Below are positions 20,501 through 43,568 of a DNA stretch of 64,000 nucleotides, in pieces. The stretch covers positions 613,472 through 677,471 of the forward strand of contig CAWANO010000010.1 in NCBI GenBank assembly GCA_963783425.1, in the 5' to 3' direction. Position 1 is the first letter of the stretch, and each line of letters starts with the position of its first letter. The position numbers were made by a program, and so were the translations under genes. The stretch comes from an uncultured delta proteobacterium. GTDB taxonomy: Bacteria > Desulfobacterota > Desulfobacteria > Desulfobacterales > QNYZ01. The notes below the pieces were generated by a model that was given only the letters and a program-made list of their open reading frames with translations, was not told where the DNA came from and did no database searches.

Positions 20501-20962
20501 CACCTCGAGCACCATCTCAAGCAGGTCACGGGCATCGAGGCCCAGAATCGGGCGCCCGTCGGAATGGATGTTACCGACGCGCTCGAGTCGCTGGTTGAGG
20601 CGCAGGGCGTCGTTCAGCTCGGCGAGCAGTATCAGGTTGTGATTTTTTCGGGTCCGTCCCGCCTTTTTATAGATGTTGCTGATTTCAGCCGTGAGCACAA
20701 AGCGCACCTGACCCGGGCAACTGGCGGGTATTTGTAACTCGCAGGCGGCTGCGCTTTTTCCGTTCAGACGGTAGAGGCCGGGCTCGGCTGGGACCAGTTT
20801 TTGTCGAATTTCATGGCACCAAACCGGGTGGGTAAAATCCCCCGTGCCAACCACGGTGATGCCTTTTATGCGCGCGGCGACGTAGAGGTTTTCCAAGTCG
20901 AGATTTTTAGCCGTTGCGATCGAATATTTGGAGTGTATGTGAAGATCGGCGATGAATTTCAT
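17516..20962 (-). CDS. EndoQ-like PHP-domain nuclease fused to a UvrD/PcrA-type superfamily-1 helicase
   Basis: The N-terminus reads 'FIADLHIHSKYS...VVGTGDFTHPVW', followed by the Zn-ribbon 'CGVCLTPGQTRGLGGICPHCEKPL' (EndoQ-like). From about residue 490 the helicase motifs appear: 'NPYQKAVV', 'VIAGPGTGKTHTI', 'VDEYQD', 'NYRS' and 'MSMHAAKGLEF'. Confidence 0.75.
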   Translation of the reverse strand: MKFIADLHIHSKYSIATAKNLDLENLYVAARIKGITVVGTGDFTHPVWCHEIRQKLVPAEPGLYRLNGKSAAACELQIPASCPGQVRFVLTAEISNIYKKAGRTRKNHNLILLAELNDALRLNQRLERVGNIHSDGRPILGLDARDLLEMVLEVDERCMFIPAHVWTPWFSLLGSKSGFDTVEACFEELTPHIFALETGLSSDPAMNWRVSNLDRYTLVSNSDAHSPLKLGREANRFDTELSFDGIYNALKSGDMKSFEGTFEFFPQEGKYHLDGHSKCGVCLTPGQTRGLGGICPHCEKPLTLGVLNRVEALADQHSSARKGARHPYLSIVPLMEILAEIYGVGVNTKTVGRAYQQAISRLGDEFSILSRLSEGQIARAGIPLLAEAVRRMRTGAVHIDAGFDGRFGTVHLFEAAERQELTGQRRLFLSLPPDPNTASKAEKITRGGLYNAPAPRVTSEPAPQPVVDPPHKAPRLNPYQKAVVEHDDSALIVIAGPGTGKTHTITTRMVRLINDTGVEPDQILALTFTNKAAGEMRQRVAAMTEKKSKQPVIATFHGLCNQLLRAESEGSERVLLDTENRKAMIRDAVDMVASDGQPLALWTEAADRAIMRAKQRIEERVRADDLAGIDGIDLATANHIYESYTGLMQFQGVQDFEDLIMRVVCRLEDDSRYRRWLEQRFKYVFVDEYQDLNEGQYRLLRSLIPADGRGLCVIGDPDQAIYGFRGSDQRFFLRFKRDYPAAAVVALQRNYRSTPAILKAARQMLNGVGIHHGLPDSDLAGFATHAVPLLSEIKGRATIGTLATKTDHEEARAIARLIEERVGGRGFHDIDTGWITQNATAQHSYGDFAVLFRTHFQSQLLSQALGDAGIPFCVAAREALFQQAGIGDLLAAAKLVNGAGVYSDLASAVALMEGPPSNLAIKRLKRWGLMREIPVWRALDEVRHLPISGMSRNQQAAVVRLAQWLDHIKSGIPDGSSETQLRWILKKTGRVEWLAADRQLARQWELIFDLAKDRTWGDFITRISLYQDSDRYSEIAQQVTLMSMHAAKGLEFAVVIVAGCEDGLIPYRSQGEVLSDRDLAEEARLFYVAMTRAQSELYLSWAQQRHRFGQRVTCRRSPFLDLVEARLMARETARAPRKKRRYRQQQLF

Positions 20963-21328
20963 GTGCTATTTTTCGGTCAAAAATCAGCGCCCCAACACCC
21001 CTTAAAGTGATTGATTTCGGCAAGCTTTGAAAAGGCCGCGAAGCGGGGATTGAAATCTGAGGTAAACAACTGATTTATATTCTTAATAGTGCTTGTTTCC
21101 ATGGAATAAATATGCTATATATATGGCGTTTTTAATATTAACCCCACAATATATTGGATAAACAGTCAAATTTTGTTCAGCTATTGAACACTGCTGGCCG
21201 ACAGGGTTGAAATACGTTCCAATCGAAGCTCAATCAAAACCTTGAAATGAGGCTGTTTCGAACAACGTTCGGCCAAAACCGCTCTCATTTTTCAATAACC
21301 ACTTACCGGTATAAAATTATAAAATCGC

Positions 21329-21943
21329 ATGGGTTTTTTATCAACCACAAGTTCGATAACGCGCTACTTCGTCAAGGGCGACCTGGAAAACCCTATTACC
21401 GAAACGGTGACCAAAGCCCTAAAGGCCAACACCATTCAGGAGATCGACCGCAATACCGCCCAGACCAGCACCGGCTGGACATCGTTTACAACCCCCTATG
21501 CGCCGGATTTCAATGGCAATCGTTTCGTTTTTGGATCCCTTTTTATCTTTTCTCTACGGATCGATAAAAAATCGATTTCGGCCAAGGTACTCAACAAACA
21601 CATTTCTCAAGAGATGGCCCAACAAACCACCGCCACCGGGGGCGGCTTTATTTCCACGTCGCGCAAAGAGGCCATCAAGGATAAGGTTACCGATCAACTG
21701 AGTTTGCGCACCCCGGCATCGCCCAATATTTTTGATCTGGTTTGGGATTATGAAGCCCACAGTGTATGGCTCATGACCACCCAAAAAGCCGCCAACGAAG
21801 CGCTGGAATCTTTGTTCTTCAAATCTTTCAAGGTGCCCTTGATCCGACTTTTCCCCTACACCTTGGTGGAACTGCTGGGTCACTTGGATGACGCCCAAAA
21901 GGATCGATTTGCCAATTTGGCGCCCACGAAGTTCAACTCTTAA
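21329..21943 (+). CDS. RdgC-like (recombination-associated) protein, short form
   Basis: By eye it is colinear with about the N-terminal two-thirds of E. coli RdgC. Shared landmarks are 'TGW', 'RIDKKSISAKVL', 'RKEAIKDKVTDQL' and 'VWLMTTQKAANEALESLF'. Confidence 0.5.
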   Translation: MGFLSTTSSITRYFVKGDLENPITETVTKALKANTIQEIDRNTAQTSTGWTSFTTPYAPDFNGNRFVFGSLFIFSLRIDKKSISAKVLNKHISQEMAQQTTATGGGFISTSRKEAIKDKVTDQLSLRTPASPNIFDLVWDYEAHSVWLMTTQKAANEALESLFFKSFKVPLIRLFPYTLVELLGHLDDAQKDRFANLAPTKFNS

Positions 21944-21974
21944 GGCTTTTCAAATAATTTAGAAAGCGAACCCT

Positions 21975-22523
21975 ATGCTCGATGTGAGCGTGGCCTATAA
22001 CCGATACCGCTTTGTCGGTAATGAGTTTCTCACCTGGCTGTGGTTTGTGGTGGCCACCAACAGCTACATCACCTTTTTGGACAGCGGTGCAGATGATGGA
22101 TCATCCCAACTCACGCCGACCATAGGTCTGGGTGATCGCATCGTACTCAAAAATCGCCACGATCAGGGTGAAGAGACCATCACCATTACCGGCAGCGGCG
22201 CAGACTGGGAAGAGGGTGCGGTGGCACTTAAAAAGGGAGCCCAAGTCAACGAACTGGCGTTGGTCTTCGAGCAAGATCAGCACACCTGGAAAGCCACCCT
22301 GAAAGGGGAGAGTCTGCATTTGACCAGCCTCAAAACCCCCCAAGGCGGTAAAATTTACGCACCCGAAGAAACCGATGCGGCCGTGCTCGAAAAATTTTAT
22401 TTGTACGATCAGATTGTACAGTGGATCAATCAACTCTTTGACGCCTTTGTAGACCTGAGAATTTCAGACCAGTGGGAGAGCGGGCAATTGCCGGAGGTGC
22501 GACGATGGATCCATGCCTCCTAA
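21975..22523 (+). CDS. hypothetical protein, possibly related to the RdgC C-terminal region
   Basis: It is a separate ORF 31 nt after the previous gene. 'GNEFLTWLW' and the later pattern loosely parallel the C-terminal third of RdgC. The similarity is weak. Confidence 0.35.
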   Translation: MLDVSVAYNRYRFVGNEFLTWLWFVVATNSYITFLDSGADDGSSQLTPTIGLGDRIVLKNRHDQGEETITITGSGADWEEGAVALKKGAQVNELALVFEQDQHTWKATLKGESLHLTSLKTPQGGKIYAPEETDAAVLEKFYLYDQIVQWINQLFDAFVDLRISDQWESGQLPEVRRWIHAS

Positions 22524-22804
22524 CGGCGGCCCGCATAGTGTAGATGGTTCGCGGCGGTTGAATCCACCCGTTACCAACAATATTGGTCTAAAAGTCCGGC
22601 GTTTATGAACAAGTTCTCAAATAATGTTTAAAAAATCGTTTTTTTTAACTTCATATGAACAATATTTTAAAATAATTTTAAAAAAACTCTTTAATAATTT
22701 CAATCAATTATTATATTTTAATCATTTTGACAGCCACCAATCATCATCTCTTAATAATTAAAATAAAAATATAGGTAAAGCTGAAAACAAACGCGAGGCG
22801 AACC

Positions 22805-23923
22805 ATGCAAATCACCATCAATCGGGATGACATTATTCAGGTTTTGGCCAATGTGCAGGGCTTAACCAACCGCAAAAGCAATCTGGCCATTACGGCCAAT
22901 GTGTTGATTCGGACCGACAGTGAAGGGGTCCGCATAACGGCCACCGATCTTGAGACCGGATTCGAAGGTTACTATCCCGCCGTGGTGGGTCGTGAAGGCG
23001 CCGTTACCATCAATGCCCGAAAACTGTTCGAGATCGTGCGCGATTTTCCTATTCAGGAGATCAAACTGGAGGAGATCAAAAACGGTTGGATTGAAATCGG
23101 CAGCGGCAAGGTGATGTATCACATTGTAAGCCTTAATCCGGATGAATTTCCTGACTCGCCCGAGATCGATGATGTCCGCTCTTTCGATATGGAAAGCGGC
23201 CATTTCAAAAAGATGATCGACAAAACCGTTGGGATTGTGGGTGAAAGTGACGACAAGCGCGCTCACATCATCGGTAACTGCCTGGAGAAGGTCAAAGAGG
23301 GCGGAAAAAATATCGTGCGCATGGTGGCCACTGATGGCGGGCGGTTGTCGAAAATGGATTGTGTATATGGTGACGGCGTCGATCTACCTCTGGACAACCC
23401 CGTGCTTATTCCCAAAAAAGGGCTGATGGAGGTTTCAAAATTTCTCAGGCGTGACGGCATCGTAAATCTCGGCCTCAAAGACAATAAATTTGTCGTCAAA
23501 CAGGAGCGCGAAACCTTGATCGTGCGACTGCTGGAAGGCGTCTTTCCCGATTATGCCAAAGTGGTTTGGAGAGATATTCAGAGCGATATCCTGGTGCCCA
23601 AGCAACCCCTTTTCATGATGGTCAAACGCATGTCGATCCTGGCCACAGAGACCTATCGCGCCGTAAAATTCCGGTTTGAAGATGACTGCCTGCATATCGA
23701 CTCAACCAACCCTGACATCGGCGACTCCAAGGAACACATGGAGATTGAATTTAAGCGTAAACCGTTGGAGATGGCCTTTAATCCACGGTTTTTTATCGAC
23801 GCGCTTAATGTCATCGATGAAGAAAATGTGATTTTGAACATCTCCAATGAATCCAGGCCTTGTCTGATCGAGGCCGAAAATGACAAATCCTATCTGGGCG
23901 CTATCATGCCCATGCACGTTTAA
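22805..23923 (+). CDS. dnaN: DNA polymerase III subunit beta (sliding clamp)
   Basis: It is 372 aa with the typical clamp pattern: 'LAITANVLI', 'ATDLE', 'MVATDGGRLS' and 'PDY..V'. It ends '...YLGAIMPMHV'. Confidence 0.95.
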   Translation: MQITINRDDIIQVLANVQGLTNRKSNLAITANVLIRTDSEGVRITATDLETGFEGYYPAVVGREGAVTINARKLFEIVRDFPIQEIKLEEIKNGWIEIGSGKVMYHIVSLNPDEFPDSPEIDDVRSFDMESGHFKKMIDKTVGIVGESDDKRAHIIGNCLEKVKEGGKNIVRMVATDGGRLSKMDCVYGDGVDLPLDNPVLIPKKGLMEVSKFLRRDGIVNLGLKDNKFVVKQERETLIVRLLEGVFPDYAKVVWRDIQSDILVPKQPLFMMVKRMSILATETYRAVKFRFEDDCLHIDSTNPDIGDSKEHMEIEFKRKPLEMAFNPRFFIDALNVIDEENVILNISNESRPCLIEAENDKSYLGAIMPMHV

Positions 23924-23940
23924 ACGGGAAAAATAGAGAT

Positions 23941-26383
<2,443 letters not shown>

Positions 26384-33845: not shown

Positions 33846-35398
33846 TCATCAATGAAAATATTCATGAAACGCGTGTGGCGCTTTTGGAAGACGGCACCAT
33901 CGTGGAGCTGTTCATCGAGCGCGGCGACGACAGCGAGATCACCGGCAATGTCTACAAAGGTGTTGTTCAGCGGGTACTGCCCGGCATGCAGGCGGCCTTC
34001 GTGGATATCGGCCTCGATCAGGCGGCCTTTATACATGTAGGCGATATCAACGGCCACCATCCCGATGTCGGCTTCAGTGCGCCTGACACCCAGCTCGAAG
34101 AGGCGGCCCATGAAGGCGCCCTCCCGCTTGGGGACGAAGTGGCGGAAGTCGGCAGCAGCGCGCAGGGCCGCCGTCCCATCGAAGAGTTGTTGTTCGAGGG
34201 GCAGCAGATCCTGGTGCATGTCATCAAGTCCCCTCTGGGTCATAAAGGTCCCAGGGTAACCACCTACGTCTCTTTGCCGGGCCGATTTCTGGTGCTGATG
34301 CCCCATTCCGACCATGTGGGTATCAGTCGCAAAATCGAAGATGAGGCCGAACGCCAGCGCCTCAAAGAGGCAATGAACCAGCTGCGTGAGGATCAATGCG
34401 GCTACATCGTACGCACGGCCGCCGAGGGGACGGCTCCGGAAAAACTGGCCGACGAGATGCGTTTTTTACGCAGCCTCTGGGAATCGATCCAGCAAAAATT
34501 TAAAACCGCATCGGCCCCGGCACGATTGCACAAGGAGCTCAACGTGAGCCTGAGGGCCGTGCGTGACCTGCTCACCAACGAAGCTGAAAAAGTGGTCACC
34601 GACTCTCAAAACGTGTACGACTCGGTGCTCTCTTTCCTTAGCACCTACATGCCCACCCTGAAAGACTCCATCACGCTCTACCAGGGCCCCGAGCCGCTCT
34701 TTGACGCATACAATCTGGAGGGGGATATATCGCGGACGTTGAAACGAAAAGTGTGGCTGAAGTCGGGCGGGTACGTCGTTATCGAGCAGACCGAGGCCTT
34801 GTGCGCCATCGATGTCAACACCGGCCGCTATGTGGGCAAGCACAATTTGGACGAAACTATCTTGAAGACCAATCTGGAGGCCGTCAAGGAGATCGCCTAC
34901 CAGCTGCGCCTGCGGGACATCAGCGGCATCATCATCATCGATTTCATTGATATGGAAAAAAAGGCCAATCAGATCAAGGTCTACAATGCCCTCAAGGAGC
35001 GCCTGCGCCTGGACCGTAGCAAAACCCACGTGTTGCCTATTTCGGAGCTGGGTCTGGTCCAGATGACCCGTAAGCGGGTGCGCCAGCCACTCACCAACCT
35101 GATGTCGGAACCCTGTTTTTACTGCGAGGGCGAGGGTCATCTGCTCTCGCGACGTTCGATTTGTTACGCGATCTACAGGGAGGTGCTGCGCGAAGCGTGG
35201 GACCTGCCGGGCAATGGCATCACTTTGCGGGTCAATCCCGAGATCGCCGAACTGCTCTATCACGAGGAACAGCGCCTGATCGACTCTCTTGAGAAACGGG
35301 TGGGCAAAAAGATCGAAATATATCCCAACGAAAAGTACCATCTGGAACAGTTCGATCTTTTTGAAGTTTTAGATATTGACAAACCTAAAACTTTTTGA
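33830..35398 (+). CDS. rng: Rne/Rng-family ribonuclease (RNase G-like)
   Basis: From the ATG at 33830 the protein reads 'MLRQLIINENIHETRVALLEDG' (S1 domain start). It also has 'GNVYKGVVQRVLPGMQAAFVDIG', 'IDVNTG' and 'GIIIIDFIDM'. The gene overlaps the upstream gene's end by 16 nt. Confidence 0.85.
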   Translation: MLRQLIINENIHETRVALLEDGTIVELFIERGDDSEITGNVYKGVVQRVLPGMQAAFVDIGLDQAAFIHVGDINGHHPDVGFSAPDTQLEEAAHEGALPLGDEVAEVGSSAQGRRPIEELLFEGQQILVHVIKSPLGHKGPRVTTYVSLPGRFLVLMPHSDHVGISRKIEDEAERQRLKEAMNQLREDQCGYIVRTAAEGTAPEKLADEMRFLRSLWESIQQKFKTASAPARLHKELNVSLRAVRDLLTNEAEKVVTDSQNVYDSVLSFLSTYMPTLKDSITLYQGPEPLFDAYNLEGDISRTLKRKVWLKSGGYVVIEQTEALCAIDVNTGRYVGKHNLDETILKTNLEAVKEIAYQLRLRDISGIIIIDFIDMEKKANQIKVYNALKERLRLDRSKTHVLPISELGLVQMTRKRVRQPLTNLMSEPCFYCEGEGHLLSRRSICYAIYREVLREAWDLPGNGITLRVNPEIAELLYHEEQRLIDSLEKRVGKKIEIYPNEKYHLEQFDLFEVLDIDKPKTF

Positions 35399-35482: not shown

Positions 35483-35617
35483 ATGAAACGCACCTATCAG
35501 CCCAGTCGTATCAAGCGGGCACGAAAGCATGGTTTTTTAAAACGGATGTCGAGCAAGCAGGGGCGTCGCGTTATCAATCGTCGGCGGGCCAAAGGGCGCA
35601 AGCGGTTGGCCGTGTGA
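35483..35617 (+). CDS. rpmH: 50S ribosomal protein L34
   Basis: This gene is not in the ORF track because it is under 60 aa. It translates to [44 protein letters not shown]. Confidence 0.95.
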
Positions 35618-35979
35618 TCGAAGCCGGACAGCGATTTCGCAAAAGCGAGCGATTGCGAAAACGGCATGAATTCACCCATTTGACCCGTAGTGGATATCAG
35701 TGCCAGGATCGGAATTTTATCATTCGCTATGGGGTCAACGACTACGACCGCGCACGCCTTGGCGTCACCGCGACAAAGCGCATCGGCGGCGCCGTCACCC
35801 GCAATCGCCTCAAACGGGTTTTACGTGAATTTTTCAGAACCCATCGATTTCGGGTGGCCATCGGCGTTGATTACAACATCATCGTCAAAAGCGGTGCTGT
35901 AACACTGACGACCGACCAAATTTTCAAAGCGCTCGAAGCGCTGTTTGATGAGATTTCCAATCGGATCAACACTGCATAA
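35614..35979 (+). CDS. rnpA: ribonuclease P protein component
   Basis: The start overlaps the rpmH stop. The basic protein reads '[12 protein letters not shown]...[23 protein letters not shown]'. Confidence 0.85.
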
Positions 35980-36193
35980 CGTCACCATCCAGCTCTTTCT
36001 GGGTGCGATTCGGACCTACCAACTAGCCCTGTCGCCCTTGTGGGGCCCGACGTGCCGATTCCACCCAAGCTGCTCCGAATATGCTCATCAAGCCATAGCC
36101 CGTTACGGACTTTCCAAGGGATTTTATCTGGCGGTACGACGGCTGCTGAAATGCCACCCATTTCACCCCGGGGGTTATGATCCTTTACCGTAA
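35945..36193 (+). CDS. yidD: membrane protein insertion efficiency factor YidD
   Basis: 'YQLALSPLWGPTCRFHPSCSEYAHQAI...LLKCHPFHPGGYDPLP' is the YidD signature. The exact start is uncertain. Confidence 0.85.
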   Translation: MMRFPIGSTLHNVTIQLFLGAIRTYQLALSPLWGPTCRFHPSCSEYAHQAIARYGLSKGFYLAVRRLLKCHPFHPGGYDPLP

Positions 36194-36330
36194 ATCTGTT
36201 TAAATTTAATTATCTGGAATAGTTAAGAACATCACTTTTTTAGGCGTAGTGACAAGGCCAGCCGGCACGGCCGAGCCCGAACGATTCAATGCCAATGACG
36301 GCCACAGATGAGCGTAAGTGAGGAAAACCG

Positions 36331-38007
36331 ATGGAGCAAGGACGGCTGATATTAGCGATCGCCCTGTCATTACTCATATTTTTGGCGTGGGATTTTTTCT
36401 TTGTAAAGCCGCAACAATCCCCTCCCCAGCAGGCCCAAGAGACCGCCACCCCAAAAGCGACCCAGGAACCGGTTCAAAGCCCGACCTTACCAGCCCCTGA
36501 ACTGGCGCCGGTGACCGCCCCGGCGGCCGATCAAACCGTCGCGCAAACACCGCCCCAGGCGGTTGCCGGGCGTAGCTACAGCGTGGAGACCCCGCTTTTA
36601 AAGGCCGAGATATCCGAAAAAGGGGCCGTTATCACCCAGCTCACCTTAAAAAACTACCGAGAAGAAGCCCGCCATGATTCTCCTTTAAAAGCGTTGATTT
36701 CCGAACAAAATACGTTGGGCAGCGTGCTGACCCAGTTTACCGAAAAGAGTGTTGTCGGTCTGGATGGAGCTGTTTTTCGAAGCGATAGTCCGGCTGCACA
36801 GATCGCCATTAAAGAGGGGCAGCAAACGCTGACCTTCACCTGGCGCTCGCCGCAAAACATTGTGATTGAAAAGCGCTTTACCTTCAAGGCCGACAGCTAC
36901 CTGATCGATTATGGTGTGACGGTCAAAAACGAAAGCGAGCAGCCCTTTCAAGACCGCCTGGCCGTGGCGCTGGTCAAATACGATGAGAGCGATAAAAGGG
37001 CCTACGGGTTTCAAGGCCCCAGCGGTCTGATAAACGGGTCACTGCAACAGGTCAAGAAGAAAAACATCGCCGAGCATGAACCCATCAACGGCGACATCGC
37101 CTGGGTCGCCATCCAGGAACGCTACTTTTTAAGCAGTATTATACCAGCCAGCCCGGCAGATCGCACCATGGCGCTGGACCTGGTGGGCGAACAGTTGATC
37201 GTCAACCGCTTGGTGAGTCCGCCCACCACCTTCAATCCCCAGGGGGAGAAGGTGTTCGATTATCAGCTCTTTTTCGGGCCTAAAAGCTTACGGCTGCTGC
37301 GGGAGTTAAACAACGATCTGGCCAAAGCGGTCAATTTCGGGATGTTCGATTTTCTGGCCAAACCCTGTTTGTGGTTGATGAATTTCATCTACGACCACGT
37401 GGTTTCCAACTACGGTATCGCCATCATCATTCTCACCCTTCTGACCAAACTGGTGTTGTGGCCGCTGGGCAACAAGAGCTACAAATCGATGGGCGAGATG
37501 AAGAAGATCCAGCCCTTGATGACCGAAATTCGCGAAAAATACAAGGATGATAAGAAGAAACAAAACGAAGAGATCATGGCCCTCTACCGGACCTACAAGG
37601 TTAACCCCATGGGCGGTTGCTTGCCGATGGTGGTCCAAATTCCTATCTTTTTCGCGCTTTACCGAATGCTCTACGAAGCCATCGAGCTGCGACATGCCCC
37701 GTTTTTCGGGTGGATCAACGACCTTTCGGCACCGGACCGCTTGTTTGATTTCGGATTTTCGATCCCGCTCATGCAGCCGCCCTACGGCATTCCCGTATTG
37801 ACACTTTTGATGGGGGCGAGCATGTTTTTACAGCAGAAAATGCAACCGGCCATGGGTGACTCGACGCAAGCCAAGATGATGATGCTGATGCCCATCTTTT
37901 TCACCGTTATTTTTGTCAATTTTTCCGCCGGGTTGGTGCTTTACTGGCTTGTAAATAACGTGGTTTCCATCGGCCAACAATTTTATGTGCAGCGCAAACG
38001 CGCGTAG
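36331..38007 (+). CDS. yidC: membrane protein insertase YidC
   Basis: It has an N-terminal TM helix, a large periplasmic domain, and a conserved C-terminal core ('KMQPLMTEIREKYKDDKKKQNEE', 'GCLPMVVQIPIFFALY'). Confidence 0.9.
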   Translation: MEQGRLILAIALSLLIFLAWDFFFVKPQQSPPQQAQETATPKATQEPVQSPTLPAPELAPVTAPAADQTVAQTPPQAVAGRSYSVETPLLKAEISEKGAVITQLTLKNYREEARHDSPLKALISEQNTLGSVLTQFTEKSVVGLDGAVFRSDSPAAQIAIKEGQQTLTFTWRSPQNIVIEKRFTFKADSYLIDYGVTVKNESEQPFQDRLAVALVKYDESDKRAYGFQGPSGLINGSLQQVKKKNIAEHEPINGDIAWVAIQERYFLSSIIPASPADRTMALDLVGEQLIVNRLVSPPTTFNPQGEKVFDYQLFFGPKSLRLLRELNNDLAKAVNFGMFDFLAKPCLWLMNFIYDHVVSNYGIAIIILTLLTKLVLWPLGNKSYKSMGEMKKIQPLMTEIREKYKDDKKKQNEEIMALYRTYKVNPMGGCLPMVVQIPIFFALYRMLYEAIELRHAPFFGWINDLSAPDRLFDFGFSIPLMQPPYGIPVLTLLMGASMFLQQKMQPAMGDSTQAKMMMLMPIFFTVIFVNFSAGLVLYWLVNNVVSIGQQFYVQRKRA

Positions 38008-38023
38008 AGTGAAGGGAGTATTC

Positions 38024-38873
38024 ATGGCGCGGCAGCGAGAGTTTGAAGGACGCAACGTCGCCGAGGCCGTCGACAAGGCGTGCCAAGCGCTTGCGGTAGA
38101 GACCAAAAAGATCAAATATGAGGTGGTTTCCTTCGGGTCAACGGGTATCTTCGGACTGGTTGGGGCCCGCAAGGCCAAAATAGCCGTCAAGGAGCCTGAA
38201 AAAGCCTTAAAACCGAAACCAGCGGCGCCACCGCACGAACCCGAACCTCATCCCCAACCCGTAATCGCGGAGGTGGCGGATGAGGCCCAGGTCGCCACCG
38301 GCCCCGAGGCACCCGCCGGTCCGCCAGACGAGGAGACATCCCCAAACGGCCCTAAAAAGGCCTGATCTCAGCGCCGCACAAGCGCGCGCCGAGACCTATT
38401 TAAAACTCATCGCCGAAGCCATCAGCGAGAATCCAACCCTTGAAAGCAACATCAATGGGGATGGGATCGAGATCGACATCAACAGCGACAACCCGGCTGT
38501 TTTGATCGGTAAACGCGGTCAAACCCTTATGGCGATGCAATATCTGGTGGAACGCGCGCTCAATCACCGTTGCGCAACCGCTGATGAGCGGATTCCAGTC
38601 CATCTCGATGTGGCTGGCTATCAGGCCAGGCGACGCGAAAACCTCATCAAGCTGTCACACCGTTTGGCCGAGAAAGCGCAGCGCGTCGGAAAACCGGTCA
38701 CGATCGGTCAACTCAACCCGTCTGAACGCCGCATCGTACATGTAGCCCTCAGGGGAAACCATGCCGTTCGCACCCACAGCACGGGCGGCGGCTATGTTCG
38801 CAAGCTGACCATTTTTCCCAACGGCAACCGTCGAAAGCCCTTAAACGGGGGCCAGCCTGTGCATATCGATTAA
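38024..38873 (+). CDS. jag: Jag/KhpB-type RNA-binding protein (Jag_N, KH and R3H), interrupted by a 1-nt frameshift at an A5 run (38354-38358)
   Basis: GAAGGGAG RBS lies upstream. The Jag_N domain ('FEGRNVAEAVDKACQAL...') and a Pro/Glu linker are in track ORF 37985..38365. The KH ('LIGKRGQTLMAMQYLV') and R3H ('LNPSERRIVHVAL') domains are in the +1-frame ORF 38280..38873. Confidence 0.8.
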
Positions 38874-38935
38874 AGGTGTTGGCCGCGGTTTGCCCTCCAT
38901 CGGCTTTGCACCTAAAATGACAGTGAAGATAGCGG

Positions 38936-40417
38936 TTGGGTCGGCCCCAACGCATTCAGCGATTGTCTATATTAGCACCCAAACGACCCTTGAATGTCCC
39001 CCTATCACCATCGGGCAGAAAGCCTGACAGGCTTTTGCGAACCGATACTATAGCAGCTATCGCCACCCCACCCGGTCGCGGCGGTATTGGTATTATCCGT
39101 CTTTCGGGTTCCCAGGCTTTTACCCTCGCAGAGCGCATCTTTCACCCGGCGCGGCCACAATCACCAAGACCCTTGGCGCGGCCCGCCTATGGGCACATCC
39201 GTGACCCGCACAACCAGGTGCTGCTCGACGAGATTTTACTGTCGCGCATGCGCGCGCCGCATTCCTACACCTGTGAAGATATGGTCGAAATCAACACCCA
39301 CGCCGGCCGCGCAACCTTGGAGTCTGTTTTGCGGTTGGTGCTCGGGTTGGGGGCGCGGCTGGCCGAACCGGGCGAGTTCACCCGTCGGGCCTTCGTCAAC
39401 GGTCGCATCGATTTGAGCCAGGCTGAGGCGGTGGCGGAGCTGATCAACGCCAAATCCGAGCGTGCAGCCCTTATGGCCACCACCAATCTAAGCGGAGCGC
39501 TTCGGGATATGATCGAGGCCGTTTGTCGTCGACTGACGGCCATCGAGGCCCGCATCGAAACCGCAATCGATTTTATTGAAGACACCGAGGACGAAATCAT
39601 CACCCCGGACTTGACAAGCCAGATCAGGACTGATGTGATCAAGCCCCTACAACAGCTTGTAAAGCAATACGACCGGCAGCACCTCTTTCAGGAGGGTGCC
39701 GTCGTGGCCCTTGTGGGAAAGCCCAATGTGGGAAAATCGAGCCTGCTCAACGCCCTTTTGAAAAACGAACGCGCCATCGTCACCGACATACCGGGCACCA
39801 CGCGCGATATGATCGAAGAGAGTCTGATCATCGGCCAGGTTCCGGTTCTGCTGGTGGATACGGCGGGGTTGAGATCCCCCAAAGACCTGGTTGAAGAGAT
39901 CGGGATTGAAAAAACCCGCCAGCGGGCCGCGGGTGCTGATCTGGTTGTACTGCTGGTTGATGCGTCGAGACCGCTTGAGACGGCAGACCTGGAGGCTTTT
40001 ACGGCGGTGAAACAGCAACAACCGGTGATTGTTTACAACAAAATTGATCTATGCAATGACGCTATGGTGATAGATGCGCCCTCGGAGTGGCAAGACCTGG
40101 ACAGCGTAAAAATTTCGGCCAAATATTTATACGGGTTGGAGCACCTTGAAACGGTGCTAAGCTGGCGCTTGACTGGGACGGCGGCGCTGGCAACGGAAGC
40201 GGCGAGCCCCGTTCCAAATTTTCGCCAGAAAAACACAATTTTTGAGGCGCTCGAGTGTGCGGAGGCGCTGGCGCGAGGTCTGAGTGATGCGATGCCACTG
40301 GAGCTGGTGGCTATCGAAGCCCGCCAGGCGCGCAAAGCGCTGCAGCGAGTGAGTGGTGTTGACTTGGATGAGGCGCTTCTAGATGAAATCTTCGGCCAGT
40401 TTTGCATTGGAAAATAA
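38936..40417 (+). CDS. mnmE: tRNA uridine-5-carboxymethylaminomethyl modification GTPase MnmE
   Basis: It has 'DTIAAIATPPGRGGIGIIRLSG', the G-domain motif 'GKPNVGKSSLLNAL' and the C-terminal 'FCIGK'. The true start is probably the TTG near 39035, so the listed N-terminal ~33 aa look like an extension. Confidence 0.9.
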   Translation: MGRPQRIQRLSILAPKRPLNVPLSPSGRKPDRLLRTDTIAAIATPPGRGGIGIIRLSGSQAFTLAERIFHPARPQSPRPLARPAYGHIRDPHNQVLLDEILLSRMRAPHSYTCEDMVEINTHAGRATLESVLRLVLGLGARLAEPGEFTRRAFVNGRIDLSQAEAVAELINAKSERAALMATTNLSGALRDMIEAVCRRLTAIEARIETAIDFIEDTEDEIITPDLTSQIRTDVIKPLQQLVKQYDRQHLFQEGAVVALVGKPNVGKSSLLNALLKNERAIVTDIPGTTRDMIEESLIIGQVPVLLVDTAGLRSPKDLVEEIGIEKTRQRAAGADLVVLLVDASRPLETADLEAFTAVKQQQPVIVYNKIDLCNDAMVIDAPSEWQDLDSVKISAKYLYGLEHLETVLSWRLTGTAALATEAASPVPNFRQKNTIFEALECAEALARGLSDAMPLELVAIEARQARKALQRVSGVDLDEALLDEIFGQFCIGK

Positions 40418-40429
40418 ACCTGATCGCCA

Positions 40430-40445
40430 TGTTTCACGTGAAACA
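40430..40445. other. parS: parS (ParB-binding centromere-like site), perfect consensus palindrome
   Basis: The site is TGTTTCACGTGAAACA. With its flanks it is an 18-bp perfect palindrome (40429-40446), located 12 nt after the mnmE stop. Confidence 0.85.
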
Positions 40446-40475
40446 TGGCCCACAGAGCATTGAGGAGTTTGGTTC

Positions 40476-41177
40476 ATGGATTTTGATTTCACCCCCTATT
40501 TTAGCAGTTATGAAAATATTCGCGCCGCGGCCGAGGCGGCGTTTGAAAATATAAAACGCGCCCATTCCGATGCGGTTAAATGTAAGCTGCGCTGTGACGA
40601 TTGCTGCCATGCGGTGTTCGACTTGTCGTTCATTGAGGCGCTTTACATCAGTTATCATTTCAACCGGCAGGTCGATGAGAGCGATCGGCTACGAATTATT
40701 GAAAAAGCCAATCAGGCCGACCGAAGGGTCTACAAGCTCAAACGCGAGGCCGTTAAAGCGGCGCGGAAAGGGGTGAGCGAAGAAAAGATCATTACCAAAA
40801 TGGGCAAAGAGCGCGTGATCTGTCCGCTGCTCAGCGACGAGCATCGCTGTGAAATGTACCACCTTCGCCCCATCACCTGCCGGGTTTATGGCGTCCCGAT
40901 GGCTATCGGCGGCAAAGGACGCACCTGCGGGCTCTCCGAGTTCAAGCCCGGCGTACCATATCCTACTATCAACATAGACAAACTCAACCAGAGCCTCTAC
41001 GATCTTTCCGCCCAGCTGGTCAGGGCACTCGAATCCCGGCACGCCCGCATGGCAGAAATGTTGGTGCCGCTTTCCATGGCGCTGTTGACCAGTTATAATG
41101 AAACATATCTAGGTGTTGGCCCGGAACCGGAACCAGAAAAGCCGTCCCGAAAGCGGCACAGGCGGGGGGTTCGATGA
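40476..41177 (+). CDS. YkgJ-family (UPF0153) cysteine-cluster protein
   Basis: It has 'CKLRCDDCCHAVF' and later 'CPLL....RCEMYHLRPITCRVYG', the typical CxxCxxCC zinc/iron-chelating domain. Confidence 0.7.
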   Translation: MDFDFTPYFSSYENIRAAAEAAFENIKRAHSDAVKCKLRCDDCCHAVFDLSFIEALYISYHFNRQVDESDRLRIIEKANQADRRVYKLKREAVKAARKGVSEEKIITKMGKERVICPLLSDEHRCEMYHLRPITCRVYGVPMAIGGKGRTCGLSEFKPGVPYPTINIDKLNQSLYDLSAQLVRALESRHARMAEMLVPLSMALLTSYNETYLGVGPEPEPEKPSRKRHRRGVR

Positions 41178-41527
41178 GTATTGAGTTCGATGAGGAGCAG
41201 ACCCAATCGCGCAAACGGGCCGTTTTCGAGGCGATGTCGCCTCGGCGGCAGAAATACATTTTAAAAAAGGGGTACGACCGCTGGGACCCCTTTCAGGAAC
41301 CGAAGGATCCCATTGATATCCGCCGGGATGTATCCAAACGCACAACCCAGATGCTGGTTCGAGAATTTTTAAAGACCCGGCAACAATCAGACGAAAGTTA
41401 CAGTCGCGGTGTGCTGGACATCGCTCTGGGCATCGTCAATCACGATGACTACTATCGCGGCATGTACGAGTTTTCCTGTTGGTACCGCGCGATGCTGGAG
41501 CGAGAGGGGCATGAAAAGGGGTCGTAG
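41174..41527 (+). CDS. hypothetical protein
   Basis: The ATGA start overlaps the upstream stop. It is a charged 117-aa protein with no recognisable domain. Confidence 0.45.
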   Translation: MSIEFDEEQTQSRKRAVFEAMSPRRQKYILKKGYDRWDPFQEPKDPIDIRRDVSKRTTQMLVREFLKTRQQSDESYSRGVLDIALGIVNHDDYYRGMYEFSCWYRAMLEREGHEKGS

Positions 41528-41603
41528 CCCCGCTCAATTCAAAGATCTAAAGCCCGATATAACCCCGATCGTTGCTCCTACTCGCAATCAAGGGAGAAAG
41601 CGA

Positions 41604-42446
41604 ATGCGAACGCGAAAACGAATAGACATTTGCGTGATTACCGCCGCTTGGCTCTTTTTCATGGCAGGATGCGGCCCGCAGCAATTTAAAAGCGACCTCT
41701 TTCTCCCCTTTGAATCGGCCTCCTCGGCCGGACCCACCGCTATAACCCACAACGGCAGCGATTTTATTCTGGCCACTGCCAATCAGATCATCTTTACCCG
41801 CAATATCAAGCTCGAACCCTACTTCGTCGTTGGGCAGCACATGGAGCCCGCCAACTACAGCGAGGGGGGACGCTTTCCCTTGCAGCTTTACGGCGGAGCC
41901 AATGTTTGCGGCCTGGCGTGGGAGAATCGATGCTGCGCGAAGGGGTTTTTATGGATCGTCGATGCCACCGAGAAGGTGATTTTGAAATTTGGAGAAGGGC
42001 GTGAGGCCAAAACGCTATTTGTCAGCCCGGGAAGCGCTCCCAGTGGATTAAGCCATGACGGTCAATACTTGTGGCTTTGTGATCAAGACGATGGAGTGAT
42101 TCGTAAGATCGACCCAAAAACGGGGCGAACCCTGCAAACGTTACGCTCACCGGTGAGGCATCCGACCGGGATTGCTTGGGATTGCGGGCAGTTGTGGGTT
42201 GTGGGCCTATCGCGCTGCGCAGATGCCCAAAAAGGGTGCCAGCGCCCCAGGTTGGTTCGAATGAATATCGAGCAGGACGTGAGTGATCAGGAGGTCGTTT
42301 TACCCGACATGGTTACGCAACCCAATTCCTTAACATGGTTTGACGGCTATCTGTGGGTGGGTGACCGCGCCAGCAACCGAGTCTTTCGATTCTCAACGGC
42401 AACGAGCGTATCCATAGATCCCATCAGGATCGAGACACTATCATAA
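41604..42446 (+). CDS. lipoprotein with beta-propeller-type repeats
   Basis: An AGGGAG RBS lies 7 nt before the ATG at 41604. The lipobox is 'FFMAGC'. The repeated 'G(L/I)xWDxxxLWVxD' blades ('GLAWENRCCAKGFLWIVD', 'GLSHDGQYLWLCD', 'GIAWDCGQLWVVG', 'SLTWFDGYLWVGD') are reminiscent of NHL/glutaminyl-cyclase-like propellers. Confidence 0.6.
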   Translation: MRTRKRIDICVITAAWLFFMAGCGPQQFKSDLFLPFESASSAGPTAITHNGSDFILATANQIIFTRNIKLEPYFVVGQHMEPANYSEGGRFPLQLYGGANVCGLAWENRCCAKGFLWIVDATEKVILKFGEGREAKTLFVSPGSAPSGLSHDGQYLWLCDQDDGVIRKIDPKTGRTLQTLRSPVRHPTGIAWDCGQLWVVGLSRCADAQKGCQRPRLVRMNIEQDVSDQEVVLPDMVTQPNSLTWFDGYLWVGDRASNRVFRFSTATSVSIDPIRIETLS

Positions 42447-42789
42447 CCGGATGGGGAAGCGGCGGGCGGGATTAGGGCTATCGGAACTTCACCGGCCCGT
42501 TAATCCTCACCGTTTCAACCATCAACCTAACAGTTTCCCTCAACAATAGCCCGAATTAGCATGTAGTCCTCCACCGGGCCTAACAATGCCGATCGAAAAT
42601 GTGACAATGTGGCCATGTGCTGGAATCCGTAAAGGTGGCTGGGGCAACAGCAATTTTGCCTTCTTGAGTTGGTTTCAACCACAAAACATAAGCGCCTTTG
42701 CTCATCAGCGCCTTTTGGGTGTTTGCCGCGATCGGGGGGTGCTCCAAGGTGCGGGCGGGGGTCATCCGGGATATTTAAAGCCCCGGTGA

Positions 42790-42805
42790 TGTTCCACGTG
42801 AAACA
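42790..42805. other. parS: parS (ParB-binding site), embedded in a 48-bp imperfect palindrome (42774-42821)
   Basis: TGTTCCACGTGAAACA is the classic parS 16-mer. It is flanked by the inverted arms AAAGCCCCGG and CCGGGGCTTT, giving only 2 mismatches over 48 bp. Confidence 0.85.
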
Positions 42806-42848
42806 TCCCCGGGGCTTTAAAGTGTGCGCTAAACGACGCGGCCATCGT

Positions 42849-43568
42849 TTACCCGTTACGGGTTCTATCTTTGGGGAAGATGATCAGCTTGCCGCCCATA
42901 TATCCGGCAAGTCCGGCCGCGGCCAGGGCCGCCAGATGAAGCGCCACAAAGAACCAGCGACCGGCGCCCCAGGTCGAGGCCACATGAGGGTCGACCAGGC
43001 GCCAGATCACCAGCACGATGGCGACGAGTGTGACGATAGCGGCGCAAATCATCTTGGTGCGAAAAACAGGGGTCATATTGCCGCCGAAACGGCGCTGCCA
43101 GTCCAGATACCCGGTGAAGATCACCAGCGGCATGGCCAGGGCCACAAAGACCACGTTGTAGAAAGCGGCGGTCTTGAGCGCGATGGATCCCGTCAGCAAC
43201 CCCAATAGCAAAAAAAGTACCGCCACCGGCAGGACGCCATTGGGTATATGAACGCTTATGGGATGGCCGTGCAGGTCGACGATGGTGTCGATGAGGCTCG
43301 TTTGCCAACCGGCGGCAACTGGCGGTGCGGTTTCGTCGGCGCTTATCTTCGGAGAAGATGGCGCGGCCGGCTGCTGATCGCCTGCGACCATCTGCTCATC
43401 CTGTTCCGCCGGTGCCGCTTCTACCTGCTTTGCATCGGAATCGGCGCTTTTGGTGGGTAGCTCGACCAGTTCGAAAAGGGACCTGTCAGCCCCGCAAACG
43501 GGGCACTTTTCGGGCGGCTCATCGCCCGTGTGAACGTATCCGCACACCGTACATCGCCATTGTTTCAT
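42849..43568 (-). CDS. rubredoxin-type zinc-ribbon domain fused to a DUF2231-like membrane domain
   Basis: The N-terminus reads 'WRCTVCGYVHTGDEPPEKCPVCGA'. A low-complexity linker follows, then 4 predicted TM helices with His residues ('HGHPISVHIPNG'). Confidence 0.65.
   Translation of the reverse strand: MKQWRCTVCGYVHTGDEPPEKCPVCGADRSLFELVELPTKSADSDAKQVEAAPAEQDEQMVAGDQQPAAPSSPKISADETAPPVAAGWQTSLIDTIVDLHGHPISVHIPNGVLPVAVLFLLLGLLTGSIALKTAAFYNVVFVALAMPLVIFTGYLDWQRRFGGNMTPVFRTKMICAAIVTLVAIVLVIWRLVDPHVASTWGAGRWFFVALHLAALAAAGLAGYMGGKLIIFPKDRTRNG

What the first reader, a model, noticed from the sequence alone, without database searches (positions are those of the whole stretch)
40429..42821. Two consensus parS sites bracket a three-gene block where mnmG-rsmG-parAB usually follows mnmE
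TGTTTCACGTGAAACA (40430-40445) is a perfect palindrome lying 12 nt after the mnmE stop. TGTTCCACGTGAAACA (42790-42805) matches the classic ParB-binding 16-mer.

The second site sits at the centre of a 48-bp near-perfect palindrome (42774-42821) between convergent genes. It could therefore double as a hairpin or terminator.

Between the two sites lie a YkgJ-type Cys-cluster protein, a small unknown protein and a beta-propeller lipoprotein. The mnmG, rsmG, parA and parB genes that usually follow mnmE are absent. This suggests insertion or rearrangement at the partition locus.
Basis: partly seen in the sequence, partly recalled or inferred. Interest (0 to 1): 0.6.

Follow-up and report, generated by a model that had tools for sequence, protein, structure and literature searches.

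The report
Two chromosomal parS centromere sites
Two textbook ParB-binding (parS) centromere sites lie just after the mnmE gene near the replication-origin gene cluster of an uncultured Desulfobacterales bacterium; they look real and conserved, but this is ordinary biology and the missing partition genes reflect an old, order-wide gene arrangement rather than a recent insertion.

Summary
TGTTTCACGTGAAACA (40430-40445, 12 nt after the mnmE stop) and TGTTCCACGTGAAACA (42790-42805) are the only matches with up to 2 mismatches in 64 kb (0.1 expected). The second lies at the centre of a 48-bp palindrome.

Both behave as selected ParB sites.
- They follow rpmH-rnpA-yidD-yidC-jag-mnmE and lie 14 kb from dnaN-gyrB.
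- Site 1 is the only k-mer of 5 or more bases shared by nine otherwise unalignable mnmE-ykgJ spacers of Desulfobacterales relatives.
- A parS lies 0-6 nt after the mnmE stop in 13 of 74 loci from several phyla, usually before mnmG.
- Site 2 is kept after the rubredoxin-DUF2231 gene in relatives of 77-97% protein identity.

The "insertion at the partition locus" reading is only partly right. mnmG, rsmG, parA and parB are absent from the window. However, mnmE-parS-ykgJ-117-aa gene is the shared arrangement of this group. Only the lipoprotein, a decayed DUF123 gene and the rubredoxin gene are lineage-specific.

The hairpin is strong, but the terminator role is unproven. The genome's ParB could not be located because the source contig is not readable.

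Verdict: new members of a known kind, low interest.

The parts
22805..26383 (+). dnaN (22805-23923) and gyrB (23941-26383, split by a frameshift). These are origin-region marker genes 14-17 kb upstream of the parS sites.
   Evidence: Pfam DNA_pol3_beta (three domains), and HATPase_c/DNA_gyraseB/Toprim/GyrB_C.
35483..40417 (+). rpmH-rnpA-yidD-yidC-jag-mnmE cluster. rpmH is 35483-35617, rnpA 35614-35979, yidC 36331-38007, jag 38280-38873 and mnmE 38936-40417.
   Evidence: Pfam and NCBIfam hits; rpmH found by translation.
40426..40449 (.). Perfect 24-bp palindrome containing parS1 (TGTTTCACGTGAAACA, 40430-40445), 12 nt after the mnmE stop.
   Evidence: The 16-mer is the only k-mer of 5 or more bases shared by nine orthologous spacers. 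In the relatives L088/L089 (117-aa protein 90% identical) the flanks become GGACCA|parS|TGGTCC.
40476..41177 (+). CxxCxxCC (YkgJ-type) Cys-cluster protein, 233 aa.
   Evidence: Pfam PF03692, E 1.1e-4, 23.3 bits against a cut-off of 23. It is syntenic in relatives at 45-50% identity.
41174..41527 (+). Conserved hypothetical 117-aa protein. Its start overlaps the ykgJ stop (ATGA).
   Evidence: No Pfam or NCBIfam hit. 2398 homologues were found, and the top 120 are 63-100% identical. The predicted structure is helical with pLDDT 70.7 and has no fold match.
41604..42446 (+). Lipoprotein (lipobox LFFMAGC) with weak beta-propeller similarities.
   Evidence: Weak Pfam hits to Vgb_lyase, SGL and DUF6923. 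It is present at the same position in the relative whose 117-aa protein is 82% identical and absent from L001, L005 and L049.
42518..42765 (-). Frameshifted, shortened DUF123 (GIY-YIG-like) pseudogene.
   Evidence: tblastn with the L084 DUF123 protein gives 43% identity over 46 aa, with a second piece in another frame. The gene is intact in relatives: 168 aa and 115 aa in L084.
42774..42821 (.). 48-bp near-perfect palindrome whose centre is parS2 (TGTTCCACGTGAAACA, 42790-42805). It lies 28 nt downstream of the stop of the minus-strand rubredoxin-DUF2231 gene.
   Evidence: I1. RNA folding gives -31.7 and -33.5 kcal/mol, z -4.8 and -6.2. parS with flanking arms is kept in L081, L084, L085 and L086.
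42849..43568 (-). Rubredoxin-like domain plus DUF2231 membrane protein, 239 aa.
   Evidence: Pfam RUBY_RBDX and DUF2231; close homologues P0001-P0003.

Best explanation
Both 16-mers are genuine chromosomal centromere (parS) sites of a ParABS system in an uncultured Desulfobacterales bacterium.

Inferred mechanism, from the established ParB literature:
- A ParB dimer recognises each palindrome through its helix-turn-helix domain, binds CTP, closes into a clamp and slides onto neighbouring DNA.
- With two loading sites 2.36 kb apart, a single ParB nucleoprotein complex would cover the mnmE-to-rubredoxin region.
- That complex marks the origin domain for ParA-driven segregation and SMC loading.

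Site 1 is old. It is the parS that sits between mnmE and mnmG in many bacteria. It stayed attached to the 3' end of mnmE after mnmG-rsmG (and parAB) came to lie elsewhere in the Desulfobacterales ancestor.

Site 2 is a younger, clade-specific second site. It is built into the hairpin that follows the rubredoxin-DUF2231 gene.

What is shown: sequence identity to the consensus, rarity in the window, the origin-marker context and conservation. What is inferred: ParB binding itself and the downstream mechanism.
For: (1) Sequence and rarity. Both sites match TGTTNCACGTGAAACA exactly and are the only such sites in 64 kb (0.10 expected). The review PMC7022226 gives this as the conserved chromosomal parS and places most parS sites in the ori domain. 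Papers holding the exact string TGTTCCACGTGAAACA are ParB/parS studies.

(2) Context. rpmH-rnpA-yidD-yidC-jag-mnmE lies immediately upstream, and dnaN-gyrB lies 14-17 kb upstream.

(3) Footprint for site 1. In nine mnmE-ykgJ spacers of 58-426 nt and 32-54% GC, from genomes whose MnmE is 43-50% identical, the 16-mer is the only shared k-mer of 5 or more bases.

(4) Deep conservation of position. 13 of 74 evaluable mnmE loci have a parS 0-6 nt after the stop, and 4 more have one at 47-170 nt. These include Desulfobacterales, Geobacter, Clostridia and Chlorobiaceae. Outside the Desulfobacterales group (L005, L007, L009, L012, plus L001 and L049 among the more distant sites) mnmG is the next gene.

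(5) Site 2 conservation. It is retained 40-90 nt after the rubredoxin-DUF2231 stop in contigs whose protein is 97, 85 and 77% identical, while the flanks diverge.

(6) A related genome (L091) carries two perfect parS sites 150 bp apart in the same mnmE-ykgJ spacer. This is consistent with, though it does not show, selection for more than one site there.
Against: - No ParB or ParA gene is in the window or in any 20-kb Desulfobacterales locus examined.
- The rest of the source genome could not be read. The 117-aa protein is identical to P0121, which lies on a 1,091,574-bp NCBI contig that the tools did not return. So the cognate ParB and the genome-wide distribution of the 16-mer are untested.
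- No dnaA gene and no DnaA-box cluster is in the window, so closeness to the origin rests on marker genes only.
- Site 2 is absent from more distant relatives (L001, L005, L049, L091).
Confidence: 0.85

Rival explanations
1. One reading: the three-gene block was inserted into, or rearranged within, this genome's partition locus. It displaced mnmG-rsmG-parAB from between two parS sites that used to bracket them.
For: - mnmG follows mnmE in about 48 of 80 loci.
- Some genomes have two parS sites 1.9-2.6 kb apart bracketing mnmG(-rsmG), in some cases just before parA. Examples are L074 (11326/13767), L019 (6881/8823), L035 and L038.
- The right-hand part of the block (lipoprotein, DUF123, rubredoxin gene) really is lineage-specific. 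DUF123 is decaying.
Against: - mnmE-parS-ykgJ-117aa is shared by L001, L005, L007, L009, L012, L049, L087-L092 and the P0124 contig. Any displacement therefore predates the divergence of these genomes, whose MnmE is 43-50% identical.
- parS2 is not at the end of a conserved bracket. It is missing from those more distant relatives and travels with the rubredoxin gene instead.
- The two sites share only the 18-mer, with no flanking homology (D3).
Confidence: 0.1
2. The palindromes are primarily RNA or transcription elements (3'-end hairpins or intrinsic terminators of mnmE and of the rubredoxin gene). Their resemblance to parS is secondary, or they serve both roles.
For: - The hairpins are strong: -18.0 kcal/mol for site 1, and -31.7 and -33.5 kcal/mol for site 2, with z from -4.8 to -6.2.
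- The palindromes extend beyond the 16-mer (24 and 48 bp).
- The flanks of site 1 change in a compensatory way in L088/L089 (GCCA/TGGC becomes GGACCA/TGGTCC).
- The outer arms of site 2 stay paired in 90.8% of cells. In relatives they are followed by T-runs (L086 TTTTTT, L084 TTTT) in the direction of the rubredoxin gene.
Against: - In the window only TTT follows the site 2 stem, and no T-run follows site 1. The terminator scan calls neither.
- Covariation is not significant with four sequences: 2 double changes, and 40 of 500 shuffles do as well.
- A generic terminator would not keep an exact 16-mer across phyla.
- In many genomes the mnmE-proximal parS is only about 10-20 nt before the mnmG start, where termination is not expected.
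- A dual role is not excluded.
Confidence: 0.2
3. The sites belong to a repeated palindromic element family (REP or MITE-like), or to a mobile-element or plasmid-type partition cassette brought in with the DUF123 gene.
For: Site 2 lies next to a decayed GIY-YIG-like DUF123 gene, in a region that varies between relatives.
Against: - There are only two copies in 64 kb, and they share nothing beyond the 18-mer.
- No ParA/ParB, integrase or plasmid genes are nearby.
- The sequence is the chromosomal consensus, and site 1 is in a core-gene spacer conserved across an order.
Confidence: 0.03

Closest known systems
Chromosomal ParABS centromere sites (parS, consensus TGTTNCACGTGAAACA), as in Bacillus subtilis Spo0J sites and other bacteria
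   Same: Exact 16-bp consensus. More than one site. Location among origin-linked genes. Conserved at orthologous positions. The site 2 sequence TGTTCCACGTGAAACA is one used in ParB/parS studies.
   Different: The cognate parAB operon is not adjacent: it is more than 24 kb downstream or more than 40 kb upstream, if it is on this contig at all. ParB itself was not seen. Both sites carry longer palindromic flanks.
Pseudomonas aeruginosa parS1-4, which lie about 10-20 kb from gidAB-parAB
   Same: The functional parS sites lie near the origin but are separated from parAB by 10-20 kb (PMC13438810). parS sites without adjacent par genes are therefore an established arrangement.
   Different: In P. 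aeruginosa, gidAB-parAB still sit close to the trmE region; here they do not. The statement about trmE rests on my own knowledge and was not checked.
The mnmE-parS-mnmG(-rsmG) arrangement seen here in Geobacter, Clostridia, Chlorobiaceae and other loci
   Same: A parS sits within 0-6 nt of the mnmE stop.
   Different: In this Desulfobacterales group the gene after the site is a CxxCxxCC protein, not mnmG.
Rho-independent terminators
   Same: A GC-rich extended hairpin lies 28 nt after a stop codon, and relatives have a T-run after it.
   Different: The window copy has only TTT after the stem and is not called by the scan. The loop and upper stem are a protein-binding consensus.

Membership tests
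Chromosomal parS (ParB-binding centromere) | 16-bp palindrome matching TGTTNCACGTGAAACA | tested here: met
   Both sites have 0 mismatches. They are the only sites with up to 2 mismatches in 64 kb, against 0.10 expected. The consensus is taken from PMC7022226.
Chromosomal parS (ParB-binding centromere) | Location in the origin-proximal domain | tested here: inconclusive
   The origin-marker genes rpmH-rnpA-yidC-jag-mnmE are adjacent, and dnaN-gyrB is 14-17 kb away. However, no dnaA and no DnaA-box cluster is in the window, and the GC-skew profile is not decisive.
Chromosomal parS (ParB-binding centromere) | Site conserved at the orthologous position while the surrounding non-coding DNA diverges | tested here: met
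   Site 1 is the only k-mer of 5 or more bases shared by nine spacers. Site 2 is kept in relatives of 77-97% protein identity.
Chromosomal parS (ParB-binding centromere) | Cognate ParB (and usually ParA) encoded in the same genome | not testable with these tools
   None is in the window or in the Desulfobacterales loci. The 1,091,574-bp source contig is not readable.
Chromosomal parS (ParB-binding centromere) | Few copies genome-wide, enriched near oriC | not testable with these tools
   Only 64 kb is available. Within it, both sites fall in a single 2.4-kb stretch.
Chromosomal parS (ParB-binding centromere) | Specific ParB binding and CTP-dependent loading | not testable with these tools
   This needs an experiment.
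Rho-independent terminator (48-bp palindrome) | Stable GC-rich stem-loop shortly after a stop codon | tested here: met
   -33.5 kcal/mol on the minus strand, z -6.2. The hairpin lies 28 nt after the rubredoxin-DUF2231 stop.
Rho-independent terminator (48-bp palindrome) | U-tract directly after the stem | tested here: not met
   The window has TTTAAA only, and the scan does not call it. The relatives L086 (TTTTTT) and L084 (TTTT) do have one.
Rho-independent terminator (48-bp palindrome) | Compensatory changes that keep the stem | tested here: inconclusive
   Four sequences, 90.8% of cells paired, 2 pairs with double changes, and 40 of 500 shuffles do as well.
REP or MITE-like repeated palindromic element | Many dispersed copies that share the whole element | tested here: not met
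   Only two copies are present, and they share only the 18-mer ATGTTNCACGTGAAACAT.

The most novel reading that the evidence does not exclude
The parS that abuts the mnmE stop codon may be an ancient centromere position shared across phyla (seen here in Desulfobacterales, Geobacter, Clostridia and Chlorobiaceae). It would be selected in its own right and would survive even when mnmG-rsmG-parAB move away. Its extended palindromes, and the hairpin around parS2, would then be dual-purpose elements. As DNA they load ParB. As RNA they form 3'-end or terminator hairpins that shield the loading site from read-through transcription, or couple ParB occupancy to expression of the neighbouring genes.
Probability: 0.15. 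Interest if true: 0.45.

Novelty: new member of a known kind. Interest (0 to 1): 0.25.

Why it matters
For annotation, the result marks the centromere of an uncultured Desulfobacterales chromosome. It also shows that missing par genes next to parS is the normal state in this group, not a sign of recent rearrangement.

The wider comparative point is modest but usable. A parS within a few bases of the mnmE stop recurs across distant phyla and persists after its usual neighbour mnmG is gone. This makes the 3' end of mnmE a handy landmark for finding centromeres and origin domains in fragmentary metagenome assemblies.

Nothing here challenges current understanding of ParABS.

Tried and rejected
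- **Finding the source genome.** An exact look-up of the YkgJ-type protein found nothing. The 117-aa protein is identical to P0121 on a 1,091,574-bp NCBI contig, but only a 2.4-kb Logan contig was returned. A genome-wide parS scan and a search for parAB were therefore impossible.
- **Genome collection.** The nearest MnmE is only 43-50% identical.
- **RNA genes.** Rfam (gathering thresholds) and tRNA scans of the window found nothing.
- **Origin signals.** Motif searches for ParA, ParB and perfect DnaA boxes, and a DnaA-box scan allowing one mismatch, gave nothing useful. No origin can be placed in the window.
- **Literature.** Searches for parS together with mnmE, trmE, thdF or Desulfobacterales gave no paper describing a parS at the 3' end of mnmE. 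The Livny et al. 2007 survey is not held.
- **RNA structure of the parS2 hairpin.** Covariation is inconclusive with four sequences.
- **Function of the 117-aa protein.** The AlphaFold model has pLDDT 70.7 and pTM 0.34. No PDB fold match reaches E 0.001; the best is E 5.
- **Duplication of site 1 to make site 2.** Rejected, because there is no similarity beyond the 18-mer.
- **Third homologue search.** It was not spent on ParB. The best-120 list from a ParB of another order would be unlikely to include this lineage.
Full report

Yes. TGTTTCACGTGAAACA is at 40430-40445 and TGTTCCACGTGAAACA at 42790-42805. A scan for TGTTNCACGTGAAACA with up to two mismatches finds only these two places in 64 kb. 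The expected number is 0.10, and none of 100 dinucleotide-preserving shuffles reaches the observed count. Three mismatches add only one poor hit, at 35256.

The mnmE stop codon is at 40415-40417, so site 1 begins 12 nt after it. Site 1 lies inside a perfect 24-bp palindrome (40426-40449). Site 2 is the centre of a palindrome with two abutting 24-nt arms that are 92% complementary (42774-42821).

**2. Gene context**

Pfam and NCBIfam confirm RNase G/E, rnpA, yidC, jag and mnmE upstream. rpmH is at 35483-35617. Downstream of site 1 lie:
- a CxxCxxCC/YkgJ-type protein (40476-41177; Pfam hit just at threshold);
- a 117-aa protein with no family (41174-41527; its start overlaps the previous stop);
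- a lipobox protein with weak beta-propeller similarities (41604-42446);
- on the other strand, a rubredoxin-DUF2231 membrane protein (42849-43568).

The 340 nt left of site 2 are not empty. They hold a frameshifted, shortened DUF123 gene on the minus strand (about 42518-42765). This gene is intact in relatives.

Annotation of the rest of the window shows dnaN (22805-23923) and gyrB (23941-26383) 14-17 kb upstream of the sites. There is no dnaA, mnmG, rsmG, parA or parB. Profile HMMs for ParA, ParB, MnmG and RsmG, built from related loci, also find nothing in the window. No DnaA-box cluster is present. Closeness to the origin therefore rests on marker genes only.

**3. Where does the window come from?**

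The nearest MnmE proteins in the species-genome collection are 43-50% identical and belong to Desulfobacterales or Desulfobacteraceae MAGs. The 117-aa protein is 100% identical to a protein recorded on a 1,091,574-bp NCBI contig. That contig is presumably the source, but it was not returned. The rest of the genome, including its ParB, could therefore not be examined.

**4. Site 1 is conserved, and it is old**

In L001, L005, L007, L009, L012 and L049 the order rng-rnpA-yidD-yidC-jag-mnmE-(parS)-ykgJ-117aa is the same as in the window. The same holds for the closer contigs L087-L089, for L091/L092 and for the P0124 contig.

The mnmE-ykgJ spacers of nine of these genomes are 58-426 nt long, 32-54% GC and otherwise unalignable. 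The 16-mer TGTTTCACGTGAAACA is present in all nine. Once it is masked, no k-mer of even 5 nt is common to them. This is a clean phylogenetic footprint of a sequence-specific binding site.

Beyond this order, 13 of 74 evaluable mnmE loci carry a parS (up to 2 mismatches) 0-6 nt after the mnmE stop, and four more carry one at 47-170 nt. The 13 include Desulfobacterales, Geobacter/Geobacteraceae, other 'Deltaproteobacteria', Clostridia (a Clostridiales MAG, Alkaliphilus, Oscillospiraceae) and Chlorobiaceae. Outside the Desulfobacterales group the next gene is mnmG, followed in the Geobacter loci and L074 by rsmG.

The simplest reading is that the site between mnmE and mnmG is ancestral. It stayed with the 3' end of mnmE when mnmG-rsmG came to lie elsewhere in the Desulfobacterales ancestor.

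**5. Site 2 is younger but also conserved**

Three close homologues of the rubredoxin-DUF2231 protein (97, 85 and 77% identity) lie on short metagenome contigs. Each has a parS 40-90 nt after the stop of that gene. A fourth contig, L081, has a 99% identical lipoprotein and shows the same site.

The core GATGTTTCACGTG(G/A)AACAT is invariant, while the outer arms differ (AAAGCCCCGG, AAAACCCCGGC, AAAAGC...). More distant relatives (L001, L005, L049, L091) have no parS there. L091 instead has two perfect parS sites 150 bp apart in the mnmE-ykgJ spacer. This is consistent with selection for more than one site, placed differently in different lineages.

The relative whose 117-aa protein is 82% identical has exactly the window's gene order, with an intact DUF123 gene. 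The lipoprotein-DUF123-rubredoxin segment is therefore a clade-specific feature and not a private insertion of this genome.

**6. Hairpin or terminator?**

As RNA, the palindromes fold strongly. Site 1 gives -18.0 kcal/mol. Site 2 gives -31.7 kcal/mol on the plus strand and -33.5 on the minus strand, with z-scores from -4.8 to -6.2.

Arguments for a structural role:
- The flanks of site 1 change from GCCA/TGGC to GGACCA/TGGTCC in a close relative whose 117-aa protein is 90% identical. This keeps and even lengthens the palindrome.
- The outer arms of site 2 remain paired in 90.8% of cells.
- In L086 and L084 the hairpin is followed by TTTTTT or TTTT in the direction of the rubredoxin gene.

Arguments against:
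- The window copy has only TTT after the stem. No T-run follows site 1, and no T-run follows site 2 on the plus strand. The terminator scan calls neither site.
- With four sequences the covariation is not significant: two double changes, and 40 of 500 shuffles do as well.
- In many genomes the mnmE-proximal parS sits only about 10-20 nt before the mnmG start codon.

A secondary role as a 3'-end hairpin for the minus-strand gene is possible but unproven. A bidirectional terminator is not supported.

**7. Mechanism**

The following is inferred from established ParABS biology (review PMC7022226). ParB dimers bind each 16-mer, load as CTP-dependent sliding clamps and spread over the neighbouring kilobases. 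Two sites 2.36 kb apart would nucleate one partition complex over the mnmE-to-rubredoxin region. That complex marks the origin domain for ParA-driven segregation and SMC loading.

parS sites that lie 10-20 kb from parAB are known from Pseudomonas aeruginosa (PMC13438810). 'Orphan' sites are therefore not unusual.

**8. Verdict**

The main gap is that ParB of this genome could not be inspected.

The suggestion of an insertion or rearrangement at the partition locus is only partly right. The absence of mnmG-rsmG-parAB after mnmE is the shared state of this Desulfobacterales group. Only the right-hand part of the block is lineage-specific.

This is a new member of a known kind and is of low interest. 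There is one modest comparative by-product: the 3' end of mnmE is a recurrent, cross-phylum parS position. I found no paper describing this in the searchable library, though the key 2007 survey of parS sites could not be read.

Noticed in passing
window 23941-26383 (shift near 24862-24890): gyrB is split into two overlapping ORFs (23941-24951 and 24896-26383). The frame changes next to the A5 and A6 runs at 24862 and 24875. Because gyrB is essential, this is probably an assembly indel at a homopolymer rather than a real pseudogene.
   Followed up: partly
window 41174-41527; homologues P0121-P0240: The 117-aa protein belongs to a very well conserved family with no Pfam or NCBIfam model (2398 hits). 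It is 57-60% identical in genomes whose MnmE is only 43-50% identical. It always directly follows the CxxCxxCC gene, overlapping its stop here, and lies downstream of mnmE. The AlphaFold model is all-helical with pLDDT 70.7 and has no PDB fold match. Its function is unknown, and a functional link to MnmE, which here lacks an adjacent MnmG, is untested.
   Followed up: partly
window 42518-42765 (-): A decayed DUF123 (GIY-YIG-like) gene lies between the lipoprotein gene and parS2. It is frameshifted and shortened here and in the 97% relative L085. It is intact in the P0124 contig (168 aa) and in L084 (115 aa).
   Followed up: yes
window 20962-22805: A low-GC zone (0.46 against about 0.56) lies upstream of dnaN. 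It holds an RdgC-like gene (21329-21943) and an unknown ORF (21975-22523) where dnaA is often found. No dnaA gene and no DnaA-box cluster occurs anywhere in the window.
   Followed up: partly
L081 2130-2197: This metagenome contig ends inside the parS2 palindrome, and its last bases are the reverse complement of the preceding ones. This looks like an assembler fold-back at a long palindrome, so its 'perfect' 48-bp palindrome should not be trusted.
   Followed up: no
L048 5424-5537; L072 14842-15058; L091 9104-9269: Some relatives carry tandem parS arrays. A Ruminococcus MAG (L048) has three perfect sites at 49-bp spacing. A Myxococcales MAG (L072) has three sites within 200 bp. The Desulfobacterales assembly GCA_054008355.1 (L091) has two perfect sites 150 bp apart in the mnmE-ykgJ spacer.
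   Followed up: no
L002, L003, L004 (mnmE at about 10-11 kb in L002 and L004, about 5-6.4 kb in L003): Three Desulfococcaceae/Desulfobacterales MAGs have mnmE in a different neighbourhood. There is no rnpA-yidC-jag upstream, no parS within 10 kb, and no ykgJ or mnmG downstream. The origin-region synteny is therefore not universal in the order.
   Followed up: no
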